A stretch of DNA of 64,000 nt from Escherichia coli O157:H7 (GCF_013167455.1 NZ_CP038328.1); one strand, 5' to 3'; numbered from the stretch's first letter, positions 20,678 to 21,075 are shown. Program-made: numbers and translations. Notes: generated from the letters alone by a model not told the origin.

Positions 20678-20733
20678 AAAAGGGCGGCAGAGCAGTCACG
20701 GAGTAAAACTGATACCGCCAAACGTCACCAGAA
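20678..20733 (-). ncRNA. dicF: DicF small RNA (Hfq-dependent; represses ftsZ and other mRNAs)
   Basis: Reverse complement reads TTTCTGGTGACGTTTGGCGGTATCAGTTTTACTCCGTGACTGCTCTGCCGCCCTTTTT, matching recalled DicF including its terminator hairpin and U-tail; directly upstream of dicB. Confidence 0.85.
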
Positions 20734-21075
20734 AATTGATAACAGAGGGCGTTGCAGCGGGGTTGTCACTTAAGCGTATGGTCAACCTGACAACCCGGTG
20801 TCCTCAACGGGGGAAGGAATAACCCCTCCATACTTACCGCCGCGCCATTTCGCGGATTGCCACAACCGGAAGCGCACGGTCGACGAAAATTTAACGACAG
20901 GCTATCTATGAACCAGCTACCTCGCCGTGCGCTTTCGCGTTATGGTCTGACTTTTCAGGGAAATATCCTTTCAGTAAACTGTCAGTGCCGTATGCTCACC
21001 CGTGTCCGGCGCACGCACTCCACCTCACCCGTGGAGAACTCCTTAATTACCAACCTTAGCTTCGTTGGTTAGCTA

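What the first reader, a model, noticed from the sequence alone, without database searches (positions are those of the whole stretch)
20678..21075. dicF-dicB module conserved, with a 330-nt ORF-free GC-rich leader upstream of DicF
DicF and DicB are near-identical to my recollection of K-12 Qin, so this prophage can inhibit host cell division. The roughly 330 nt between the 72-aa ORF and DicF contain no ORF longer than about 20 codons; they may be processed precursor RNA or hold an additional structured RNA.
Basis: partly seen in the sequence, partly recalled or inferred. Interest (0 to 1): 0.4.

Follow-up and report, generated by a model that had tools for sequence, protein, structure and literature searches.

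The report
Structured RNA leader upstream of DicF
This is the known non-coding stretch of a prophage operon from which the cell-division-blocking small RNA DicF is cut; it is ordinary, except that it holds a strongly conserved, intricately folded RNA domain that no RNA database lists and whose role is untested.

Summary
The order is ydfC (21076-21294), a 342-nt leader (20734-21075), DicF (20682-20734; Rfam 76.7 bits, identical to K-12), a 174-nt spacer, dicB (20319-20507; Pfam DicB, 55/62 identical to K-12) and ydfD. The leader is 97% identical to the K-12 Qin ydfC-dicF interval. That interval is already described as a long untranslated region from which RNase III makes a 190-nt DicF species and RNase E the 53-nt DicF. 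The module and the "processed precursor" idea are therefore known. "GC-rich" is marginal (52.9% against 51.4% for the window). No ORF on either strand shows coding conservation.

Comparative analysis adds one thing. The 5' part of the 190-nt species is a 116-nt four-way junction (20751-20866) with a probable loop-loop pseudoknot. It has 96% of cells paired and 11 pairs with compensatory changes. It has no Rfam match. It also occurs in the P1/P7 ban-operon leader and behind pL of lambdoid phages without a recognisable N gene.

It is preceded by a 19-23 bp RNase III-type helix, or in P1 by a promoter. An intrinsic terminator of variable sequence follows in essentially every flank examined. Its function is unknown. 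I favour the body of a discrete ~190-nt RNA. A cis antitermination role is not excluded.

The parts
21076..21294 (-). ydfC, a 72-aa protein of unknown function and the gene upstream of the leader
   Evidence: ORF. RefSeq annotates identical DNA as 'protein YdfC'. 71/72 identical to K-12. PHROG 1744, unknown function.
20946..21075 (-). Leader module A: a run of small hairpins directly after the ydfC stop. It is a mosaic segment that is replaced in many related prophages.
   Evidence: MFE folds. BLAST hits of many genomes begin only at leader positions 21-121. Not analysed in depth.
20860..20945 (-). P0, an RNase III-type helix of about 23 bp with small defects. The 5' arm is 20945-20922, the loop 20921-20884 and the 3' arm 20883-20860. 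The 3' arm ends in GUUGUGG, which is also the 5' strand of helix P1 of the core. The inferred 5' end of the 190-nt DicF species (about 20867-20871) lies inside the 3' arm.
   Evidence: MFE fold, duplex search (23 bp, -36.6 kcal/mol) and inverted repeat I2. An equivalent 19-23 bp helix with different arm sequences is present in the 13 loci tested, which span about six arm-sequence types. RNase III dependence of the 190-nt species is shown in K-12. The cleavage position is placed by length and is inferred.
20751..20866 (-). Conserved four-way-junction core. P1 is 20866-20860 with 20757-20751. P2 is the hairpin 20855-20840. P3 is 20839-20836 with 20799-20796, plus an internal loop and the variable hairpin 20826-20809. 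P4 is 20794-20785 with 20775-20762 (bulge 20772-20769), with apical loop 20784-20776. The candidate pseudoknot pairs GUAUGG (20833-20828) with CCAUAC (20781-20776).
   Evidence: RNAalifold and pair counts on MAFFT alignment A3: 93.3% of cells paired, 9 covarying pairs, 0/500 shuffles. On 58 distinct sequences in A4: 96.2% paired, 11 covarying pairs, slid controls 33-61%. Covariance model R1 scores the window 155.9 bits. Pseudoknot: 100% of 348 cells paired, with one U-A to C-G double change in the P1 lineage. No Rfam family at E<=10.
20724..20743 (-). Linker hairpin GUUAUCA (20743-20737) / AUUUUC loop / UGGUGAC (20730-20724). It pairs the first nucleotides of DicF with upstream linker. The 5' end of the 53-nt DicF (20734) lies in the A/U-rich loop, the inferred RNase E site.
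   Evidence: Predicted in the MFE folds of the whole interval and of related sequences. RNase E dependence of the 53-nt species is shown in K-12. The seed-masking role is my inference.
20682..20734 (-). DicF small RNA (53 nt) with its intrinsic-terminator hairpin, followed by the U-tract 20677-20681
   Evidence: Rfam RF00039, 76.7 bits. Identical to K-12.
20508..20681 (-). DicF-dicB spacer enclosed by a perfect 19-20 bp long-range helix (20673-20654 with 20543-20524). This is the probable RNase III site that gives the 72-nt DicF 3' end (about 20663) and a dicB mRNA 5' end next to its ribosome-binding site. It is a distant relative of sRNA family STnc100.
   Evidence: Inverted repeat I1, 19 nt, 100% complementary. 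MFE fold. Sub-threshold STnc100 match, 39.7 bits against 47. Alignment to the full STnc100 copy of the window. The 72-nt RNase III product is reported for K-12.
20319..20507 (-). dicB, cell-division inhibitor, 62 aa
   Evidence: Pfam DicB, 127.4 bits. RefSeq annotation. 55/62 identical to K-12.
20131..20322 (-). ydfD (DUF1482, lysis protein family), overlapping the dicB stop
   Evidence: Pfam DUF1482, 88 bits. Annotation. 59/63 identical to K-12.

Best explanation
The interval is the non-coding ydfC-dicF leader of a Qin-type dicBF operon in an E. coli O157:H7-type lambdoid prophage. It is read on the minus strand. It works as an RNA-processing cassette that delivers a discrete, folded RNA of about 190 nt, of which DicF is the 3' end.

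The proposed order of events is as follows.
1. The operon transcript folds a helix of about 23 bp (P0).
2. RNase III cuts P0. This separates the ydfC mRNA from the downstream RNA and creates a 5'-monophosphate end a few nucleotides before GUUGUGG.
3. GUUGUGG was held in P0. Once released it pairs with CUGCAAC and closes a 116-nt four-way junction, which is stabilised by a loop-loop pseudoknot.
4. Transcription ends at the DicF terminator. On read-through transcripts a second RNase III helix trims the 3' side.
5. RNase E cuts in the A/U-rich loop of a small hairpin that masks the DicF 5' end. This releases the active 53-nt DicF.

Shown experimentally, in the 97%-identical K-12 sequence: the 190-, 72- and 53-nt species and their dependence on RNase III and RNase E.
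Shown here: the helices, their conservation and covariation, and the constant arrangement of a 5'-end maker, the core and a terminator.
Inferred: the P0/P1 exchange, the seed masking, and the role of the four-way junction. I take the junction to be the functional or stabilising body of a stand-alone phage RNA rather than a spacer, because it is more conserved than DicF itself.
For: Identity:
- The DNA is 100% identical to O157:H7 chromosomes and 97-100% identical to K-12 Qin across leader, DicF and spacer.
- DicF and DicB are confirmed by Rfam and Pfam.

Processing:
- PMC10448788 section 6 reports 190-nt and 53-nt DicF species and no internal promoter. The 190-nt species is lost in an rnc mutant. 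The 53-nt species is lost when RNase E is inactivated.
- PMC5069750 and PMC9438474 describe a long untranslated region and a 72-nt RNase III product.

P0 helix:
- It is predicted where a 190-nt RNA must begin.
- All 13 loci tested keep a 19-23 bp helix ending at GUUGUGG. The arm sequences differ between types: GAAAGCGCACGG/CCGUGCGCUUC, UGAGGGCAU/GUGCUCUCA, AAGAGCAUUCC/GGAAUGCUCUU and AAUAGAGC/GUGCUUUAUU.
- In P1/P7 there is no P0. The C1-controlled promoter Pban sits about 20 nt upstream instead. So both arrangements place an RNA 5' end just before the core.

Core:
- Consensus structure with 96.2% of cells paired, 11 compensatory pairs and 0/500 shuffles.
- Pseudoknot with one compensatory change.

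Terminator:
- A crude scan of 72 distinct downstream flanks called a GC-rich hairpin plus T-run within about 135 nt in all of them. A few of these calls land on the wrong T-run or are weak.
- At least six different terminator sequences occur.

Not coding:
- The ORFs are broken in 3-11 of 21 distinct homologues and show no third-position excess.
Against: - No experiment addresses the structure or the function of the four-way junction.
- A single-sequence MFE of the 194-nt RNA (-70.9 kcal/mol) prefers a different long-range pairing to the consensus fold (-55 kcal/mol without the pseudoknot).
- The sequences were collected with an exact 20-nt motif in P4. Invariance there is by construction, and the diversity amounts to a few lineages.
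- Alignment A4 is fitted to the model.
- Pseudoknot support rests on one lineage. One contig carries a mismatch.
- I placed the RNase III cut by length. I could not map the published position (813/814) because the numbering origin is not in the text I could read.
- The promoter that drives ydfC-dicF in this prophage is not identified. There is no ydfA or ydfB, a relBE pair lies upstream, and an antisense zinc-ribbon gene sits between.
Confidence: 0.65

Rival explanations
1. The four-way-junction domain is a cis-acting element that controls the terminator following it. It could be RNA-only processive antitermination that works like HK022 put, or a Nus-factor-dependent antitermination site. Either would let RNA polymerase read through DicF and later terminators to express dicB, recombination and excision genes.
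For: - The element sits at the head of repressor-controlled early operons. In P1/P7 it is directly after Pban. In cdtI it is about 270 nt after a near-consensus pL (TTGACA-16-CATAAT), and the same placement holds in Ayreon and 2H10.
- A terminator follows it in essentially every flank examined.
- The Ayreon pL operon has a second annotated terminator before xis.
- No N-type antiterminator is recognisable among the first pL-operon proteins (PHROGs).
- The one N-encoding phage looked at (phiSTEC1589-Stx1c) carries leader modules A and B but no core.
- The terminator sequence varies freely while the core does not. That is expected of a terminator-independent mechanism.
Against: - There is no sequence or structure similarity to HK022 put. 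Model R1 finds nothing in the HK022 genome; the best hit is 13 bits over 47 nt with filters off.
- The architecture differs: a four-way junction against two stem-loops.
- Conservation of a 5'-end-making device (P0 or a promoter) is not needed for a cis antiterminator, and P0 competes with P1.
- In K-12 the transcript terminated at DicF is the main species. The read-through species is seen only when RNase E is inactive.
- The boxA-like GUGCKCU is the 3' arm of P0 and covaries with its partner, so it needs no Nus explanation.
Confidence: 0.18
2. The domain is a ligand- or protein-sensing attenuator, riboswitch-like, that decides between termination at DicF and read-through into dicB.
For: - It is a compact junction with a pseudoknot and invariant loops, immediately upstream of an intrinsic terminator.
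- The MFE of the 194-nt RNA shows an alternative pairing of core GGCGCGGCGG with the 3' arm of the DicF terminator.
Against: - No Rfam riboswitch matches.
- The alternative pairing is not conserved. P1-type terminators (GCCCAUCUUCGGGUGGGCG) have no complement in the core.
- Core-to-terminator spacing varies widely, from roughly 50 to 135 nt after P4.
- No expression-platform element covaries with the core.
Confidence: 0.05
3. The leader encodes one or more small proteins. The candidates are the sense ORFs of 21-31 codons and the antisense 54-aa ORF that PGAP annotates as hypothetical protein WP_001331716.1.
For: The antisense ORF (20908-21072 +) is annotated in several RefSeq genomes. It is intact in 16 of 21 distinct homologues.
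Against: - Variable sites fall 9/15/13 on codon positions 1/2/3, so there is no synonymous excess.
- There is no Pfam family.
- Different lineages carry different, unrelated antisense 'hypothetical' calls over the same RNA: cdtI orf40, pPE4 gp07.
- The two sense ORFs that overlap the core are broken in 11 of 21 homologues; the third sense ORF is broken in 3 of 21. K-12 has a 1-nt indel inside the 21-codon ORF.
Confidence: 0.03
4. The conservation reflects recent common descent and hitch-hiking with DicF and dicB. The folded domain is a neutral spacer.
For: - Most copies are more than 90% identical and come from E. coli prophages.
- The sample was motif-selected.
Against: - The core is retained at 76-89% identity in P1/P7, cdtI-type, Citrobacter and Trabulsiella elements. 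In those elements the flanks, the terminator and the downstream genes are unrelated.
- Helices change by compensatory substitutions while loops stay invariant.
- In 2.9 million viral contigs, one of the two pseudoknot positions scanned never varies and the other varies in two contigs.
Confidence: 0.07

Closest known systems
[quoted passage not shown]
   Same: It has the same ydfC, leader (97%), DicF (100%), spacer (98%), dicB and ydfD in the same order. The same two RNase III-type helices are present.
   Different: ydfA and ydfB are missing. The upstream neighbours are a relBE pair and an antisense zinc-ribbon gene. DicB differs at 7 of 62 residues. The downstream 823-aa exonuclease gene is intact here, whereas IS2 cuts it in K-12.
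'dicF-like region' in the leader of the phage P1/P7 ban operon (annotated at NC_005856 68791-68892)
   Same: It carries the same four-way-junction core (R1 95-100 bits) with compensatory changes in P1, P3, P4 and the pseudoknot, followed by an intrinsic terminator.
   Different: There is no P0 helix and no DicF seed. The RNA would start at Pban about 20 nt upstream. The terminator sequence is unrelated. The downstream genes are tRNAs, tciABC and ban. The P1 record marks sequence similarity only, not a structure.
HK022 put RNAs (putL, putR)
   Same: Both are cis-encoded structured RNAs in early operons of a temperate phage, upstream of terminators. No N-type protein is needed in HK022 (PMC9378689) and none is recognisable in cdtI-type phages.
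   Different: put is about 70 nt with two stem-loops and a triplex. The element here is a 116-nt four-way junction. No covariance-model match exists. No functional data exist for the element here.
Small RNAs cut out of mRNAs by RNase E or RNase III (3'-UTR-derived or intra-operonic sRNAs such as CpxQ, SroC and ManS)
   Same: A regulatory RNA is released from a polycistronic transcript by endonucleases, with a terminator hairpin as its 3' end (PMC9438474).
   Different: Here the precursor carries a large, independently conserved folded 5' domain that is more conserved than the seed-bearing sRNA.
STnc100 / PasD family of prophage sRNAs (Rfam RF02076)
   Same: The DicF-dicB spacer shares the long-range closing helix and the CACCNGGAGGCACCNGGCACC hairpin with the full STnc100 copy at 31692-31864.
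   Different: It scores 39.7 bits, below the gathering score of 47.

Membership tests
DicF RNA (Rfam RF00039) | Covariance-model score at or above the curated gathering score (48 bits) over the full model | tested here: met
   76.7 bits, model positions 1-52 of 52, 20682-20733(-)
DicF RNA (Rfam RF00039) | Located between ydfC and dicB in a dicBF-type operon, same strand | tested here: met
   ORFs and RefSeq annotation of identical DNA. Pfam DicB.
DicF RNA (Rfam RF00039) | Represses ftsZ translation and blocks cell division | not testable with these tools
   Follows only from 100% sequence identity to K-12 DicF
dicBF-operon leader / 190-nt DicF precursor (Faubladier 1990; Ragunathan 2023) | Sequence homology to the K-12 ydfC-dicF interval | tested here: met
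   332 of 342 positions identical
dicBF-operon leader / 190-nt DicF precursor (Faubladier 1990; Ragunathan 2023) | A double-stranded RNase III substrate positioned so that cleavage leaves about 137 nt upstream of DicF | tested here: met
   23-bp helix P0. The predicted 5' end at 20867-20871 lies in its 3' arm.
dicBF-operon leader / 190-nt DicF precursor (Faubladier 1990; Ragunathan 2023) | [quoted passage not shown] | not testable with these tools
   Shown for K-12 only
HK022-type put antiterminator RNA | About 70 nt, two stem-loops, sequence related to putL/putR | tested here: not met
   The element is a four-way junction of 116 nt. Model R1 finds nothing in the HK022 genome.
HK022-type put antiterminator RNA | Lies downstream of an early promoter and upstream of terminators in a phage without N | tested here: inconclusive
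   True for the P1, cdtI, Ayreon and 2H10 contexts. In the window it lies after ydfC and the promoter is unknown.
HK022-type put antiterminator RNA | Promotes terminator read-through by binding the RNA polymerase beta' zinc-binding domain | not testable with these tools
   No data
Lambda-type nut site (boxA + boxB, N-dependent) | boxA consensus (CGCUCUUA / UGCUCUUUA) followed within about 10 nt by a 15-nt boxB hairpin with a GNRA-like pentaloop, and an N gene in the operon | tested here: not met
   The boxA-like GUGCKCU is the covarying 3' arm of P0, and only one lineage matches the consensus. P2 has a 5-6-nt loop of a different sequence. No N-family protein was found.
STnc100 (Rfam RF02076), considered for the DicF-dicB spacer | Score at or above the gathering score (47 bits) | tested here: not met
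   39.7 bits, E 6.8e-07. It is a related architecture.
Any Rfam 15 family, for the four-way-junction core | A cmscan match at E<=10 | tested here: not met
   Only DicF, STnc100 and two chance hits in 20300-21400. No core match in seven related loci at E<=0.01.
tRNA-like element | Cloverleaf recognised by a tRNA/tmRNA detector | tested here: not met
   ARAGORN finds nothing in 20500-21200

The most novel reading that the evidence does not exclude
The 116-nt four-way-junction and pseudoknot domain is an autonomous, unclassified phage RNA family with its own activity. In the most provocative version it is an RNA-only device that acts on the transcribing polymerase, put-like in function though not in ancestry. 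It would let temperate phages without a recognisable N gene (the P1 ban operon; cdtI-, Ayreon- and 2H10-type lambdoids) and Qin-type prophages read through the terminator that follows it. DicF would then be a by-product of the terminated fraction.
Probability: 0.15. Interest if true: 0.8.

Novelty: already known. Interest (0 to 1): 0.33.

Why it matters
The module itself is textbook. [quoted passage not shown] It was re-confirmed in 2023.

The 137 nt that ride in front of DicF in the 190-nt species are not a spacer. They form a junction-plus-pseudoknot fold that is better conserved than DicF. Some part of the leader matches in most E. coli genomes (4425 of 5426). The core also occurs in 499 plasmid records, mostly about 90-100 kb and P1/P7-like, and in Citrobacter and Trabulsiella prophages. 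It is always wired the same way: an end-maker, then the fold, then a terminator.

If the fold has its own activity, a long-studied locus hides a second RNA function. It would also bear on how dicB, recombination and excision genes are expressed past the DicF terminator in phages without N, and that question becomes testable with simple reporters. A practical point also follows. Several 'hypothetical protein' calls over this region in RefSeq and GenBank are probably false.

Tried and rejected
- boxA/nut reading. A GUGCKCU motif about 6 nt upstream of P1 looked like boxA (UGCUCUUU in one lineage). It proved to be the 3' arm of helix P0 and covaries with the 5' arm.
- HK022 put homology. Model R1 found nothing with default filters over the whole genome. 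With filters off on the immunity region it found only 13 bits over 47 nt.
- Rfam. A permissive scan (E<=10) of 20300-21400 and a scan of seven related loci at E<=0.01 gave no family for the core.
- tRNA-like idea. ARAGORN was negative, and no conserved NCCA follows P1.
- Anti-terminator pairing of core GGCGCGGCGG with the 3' arm of the DicF terminator. It appears in the single-sequence MFE but is not conserved in P1-type elements.
- Coding potential of sense and antisense ORFs. Rejected.
- Widening pseudoknot covariation by targeted scans for variants of the 5' strand. Only two variant contigs were found, one a wobble and one a mismatch, so there is strong constraint but little new covariation.
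- P1-type diversity in plasmids. Only P1, P7 and one 83% variant were found.
- Faubladier & Bouche 1994 (PMC205167) could not be read. Any structural remarks in it, or in the 1990 J Mol Biol paper, are unknown to me.
- Full-text searches for 'dicF-like', for DicF with antitermination terms and for STnc100, and a term search inside the 2023 paper, found no description of the fold.

Full report
**What is there**

The features lie on the minus strand.
- Rfam places DicF at 20682-20733(-) with 76.7 bits, against a gathering score of 48.
- The 72-aa ORF at 21076-21294(-) is ydfC.
- A 62-aa ORF at 20319-20507(-) is DicB (Pfam, 127 bits).
- The next ORF is ydfD (DUF1482).
- Then comes an intact 823-aa protein with an Rv2179c-like 3'-5' exoribonuclease domain.

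The DNA is 100% identical to E. coli O157:H7 chromosomes, and 4750 of 5426 complete E. coli genomes have a related place. Compared with a K-12-type Qin copy:
- the ydfC-dicF interval is 332/342 identical;
- DicF is identical;
- the DicF-dicB spacer is 171/174 identical;
- YdfC is 71/72, DicB 55/62 and YdfD 59/63 identical.

ydfA and ydfB are absent. Upstream of ydfC lie an antisense zinc-ribbon gene and a relBE pair. The leader is 52.9% G+C against 51.4% for the window, so 'GC-rich' holds only relative to dicB (37.6%) and ydfC (47.5%).

**Coding potential**

Sense-strand ORFs in the leader are 21-31 codons. The opposite strand has a 54-codon ATG ORF (20908-21072 +) that PGAP annotates as a hypothetical protein in some genomes. 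I compared 21 distinct full-length homologues.
- The antisense ORF is intact in 16. Its variable sites fall 9/15/13 on codon positions 1/2/3.
- The two sense ORFs that overlap the core are broken in 11 of 21. The third sense ORF is intact in 18.
- There is no Pfam match.

The leader is non-coding, and the antisense gene call is probably spurious.

**What is already known**

[quoted passage not shown] Ragunathan et al. 2023 (PMC10448788), confirming Faubladier et al. 1990, report the following.
- A 190-nt DicF species has a 5' end that depends on RNase III.
- A 53-nt DicF depends on RNase E.
- There is no promoter inside the operon.
- A terminated ydfABC-dicF transcript is the main species. A read-through transcript is seen only when RNase E is inactivated.
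- A 72-nt form has a 3' end made by RNase III.

Neither that paper (a term search found no mention of secondary structure or antitermination) nor my other full-text searches describe a structure for the leader.

**Anatomy found here**

(a) Helix P0. The arms are 20945-20922 and 20883-20860, giving about 23 bp with small defects. Counting 190 nt back from the DicF 3' end gives 20867-20871, which lies inside the 3' arm.

(b) A four-way junction, 20866-20751. P1 pairs GUUGUGG with CUGCAAC. P2 is the hairpin CCGCG-AAAUGG-CGCGG. P3 pairs CGGU with ACCG, then has an internal loop and a variable hairpin. P4 pairs GUUGUCA-GGU with GCU-UAAG-UGACAAC and has the loop UGACCAUAC.

(c) A small hairpin. GUUAUCA pairs with UGGUGAC, and the A/U-rich loop contains the 5' end of the 53-nt DicF.

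(d) DicF and its U-tract.

(e) A perfect 19-20 bp long-range helix, 20673-20654 with 20543-20524. It encloses the spacer and ends a few nucleotides before the dicB ribosome-binding site. The 72-nt 3' end (about 20663) falls inside its 5' arm.

**Comparative evidence for the junction**

BLAST showed that the leader is a mosaic. Only leader positions of about 210-333 recur, at 76-89% identity, in these elements:
- phages P1 and P7;
- phage cdtI;
- Stx2c phages;
- Ayreon and 2H10;
- an 'Actinobacillus' phage.

It also retrieved 14 contigs of species-representative genomes: Escherichia, Citrobacter, Trabulsiella and Izhakiella, plus some MAGs of unlikely assignment.

Pair counts support the fold.
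- On a MAFFT alignment of 24 diverse copies, RNAalifold recovers the helices. My full structure gives 93.3% of cells paired, against 33-56% when partners are slid, with 9 pairs changed on both sides (0/500 shuffles).
- A covariance model built from it scores the window at 155.9 bits and the P1-type copies at 90-100 bits.
- On the resulting 58 distinct sequences, 96.2% of cells pair and 11 pairs covary.
- The P3 internal loop GUAUGG and the P4 loop CCAUAC are complementary in all 58. The single free position changes U-A to C-G in the P1 lineage.
- Targeted scans of 2.9 million viral contigs found one of the two 5'-strand positions scanned never varied. The other varied twice, once as a wobble and once as a mismatch.

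Caveats: the sample is motif-selected, alignment A4 is fitted to the model, the lineages are few, and a single-sequence MFE prefers another fold.

**A constant arrangement**

In all 13 lambdoid-type loci I tested, which span about six arm-sequence types, the strand GUUGUGG is also the end of a 19-23 bp upstream helix. The arm sequences differ between types but stay complementary. P0 is therefore conserved, and it competes with P1 for the same strand.

In P1 and P7 there is no P0. The C1-controlled promoter Pban lies about 20 nt upstream instead.

Downstream, I scanned 72 distinct flanks with a crude script. It called a GC-rich hairpin plus T-run within about 135 nt in every one. A few calls hit the T-run inside the DicF loop or another hairpin, or are weak. 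The terminator sequence varies. It is DicF in Qin types. It is GCCCAUCUUCGGGUGGGCG in P1. It is GGCGGUACCAG...CUGGUACCGC in cdtI. Several other types occur, including some with a ribosome-binding site and AUG inside a large loop.

The conserved unit is thus a 5'-end maker, the junction, a variable linker and any terminator. That predicts a discrete RNA of about 170-190 nt.

**Mechanism**

I favour the processing-cassette model given under 'best explanation'. RNase III opens P0 and frees GUUGUGG to close the junction. The terminator, or the second RNase III helix, sets the 3' end. RNase E releases DicF from a hairpin that masks its 5' end.

The RNA species and their nuclease dependence are shown in K-12. 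The helices and their conservation are shown here. The strand exchange, the masking and the role of the junction are inferred.

The junction is more conserved than DicF and survives with unrelated terminators, so I think it has its own function. I cannot say what that function is.

**Rivals**

A cis-acting antitermination device is the main rival. Several points favour it.
- The element heads repressor-controlled early operons.
- Those operons contain further terminators.
- No N-type protein is recognisable.
- The one N-encoding phage examined lacks the core.

Several points count against it.
- There is no similarity to HK022 put.
- A 5'-end maker is conserved.
- P0 competes with P1.
- Termination predominates in K-12.

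A riboswitch-like attenuator is unlikely. No expression-platform element covaries, and the spacing and terminators vary. Coding and neutral-spacer readings are poorly supported.

**Verdict**

The finding is real and correctly interpreted, but the module and the precursor role of the leader are already known. The residual interest lies in the unclassified, strongly conserved folded domain inside the known 190-nt DicF species.

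Noticed in passing
window 20475-20684 (-); compare 31692-31864 (+): The DicF-dicB spacer is a sub-threshold relative of sRNA family STnc100 (39.7 bits against 47). It shares the long-range closing helix and the CACCNGGAGGCACCNGGCACC hairpin with the full STnc100 copy elsewhere in the window. Similar sub-threshold copies follow the terminator in pPE4, HannyBb and phiSTEC1589, and lie upstream of the tellurite-resistance-type genes (tciA in P1, terB in P7). STnc100-type elements may be RNase III processing helices in front of phage genes.
   Followed up: partly
window 31692-31864 (+): A full STnc100 match (101.8 bits). It lies after a 153-aa ORF (31062-31523) and a 55-aa ORF, and before a 616-aa ORF (32002-33852), in the late region downstream of three tRNA genes. 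I did not run family searches on these ORFs. The 2026 preprint links STnc100/PasD with esterase genes.
   Followed up: partly
window 20908-21072 (+): PGAP annotates this antisense 54-aa ORF as hypothetical protein WP_001331716.1 in some O157 genomes. It has no coding signature and overlaps structured RNA. Unrelated antisense 'hypothetical' calls cover the same RNA in cdtI (orf40), pPE4 (gp07), Ayreon and 2H10. These are probably false gene calls.
   Followed up: yes
window 21381-22543: The operon upstream of ydfC differs from K-12. There is no ydfA or ydfB. An ECs_2282-family zinc-ribbon gene lies on the opposite strand (21381-21587 +), and a relB/relE toxin-antitoxin pair sits at about 22018-22543 (-) between the immunity genes and ydfC. 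The promoter that drives ydfC-dicF here is unidentified. The minus-strand candidates in the scan match only 9 of 12 positions; the nearer one to ydfC is at 21933-21906.
   Followed up: partly
window 17567-20038 (-): The 823-aa gene downstream of ydfD is intact here and ends in an Rv2179c-like 3'-5' exoribonuclease domain. The same gene is cut by IS2 in K-12 (ydfE remnant) and by IS1203 in the otherwise identical O157:H7 TR01 locus.
   Followed up: partly
window 27579-27753 (+): A sok antitoxin RNA match (116.9 bits), which implies a hok/sok-type toxin-antitoxin locus in the prophage.
   Followed up: no
window 30669-30915 (+): Three tandem tRNA genes in the late region of the prophage (72.5, 44.4 and 62.4 bits).
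   Followed up: no
L013, L100, L108, L119/L137/L144 (about 35-135 nt after the core): In one group of core-carrying elements, which includes Trabulsiella contigs, the terminator after the core has a large loop. The loop contains a ribosome-binding site and an AUG, and the reading frame runs through the 3' arm and the U-tract (for example AGGAGAGCGAAGAUAAUGUUCUACCGUGGUACCGCCUUUUUU). Translation start and termination therefore overlap.
   Followed up: no
window 20838-20854 vs 20923-20939; locus L057: The 5' arm of P0 (CGCGAAAGCGCACGGCG) is a diverged direct repeat of hairpin P2 (CGCGAAAUGGCGCGGCG). One viral contig (L057) looks like a deletion between these repeats that removes the P0 3' arm and the P1 5' strand.
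   Followed up: no
L004 (PP818812, 'Actinobacillus phage vB_Apl-pPE4'); L139-L142 (MAGs labelled Collinsella, Bacillota, Lachnospiraceae): These records carry the enterobacterial core motif exactly. pPE4 also has a DicA-like repressor, a YdaT-type gene, Kil and exodeoxyribonuclease VIII genes, and a tandem duplication of the terminator region. The host and bin assignments look doubtful.
   Followed up: no
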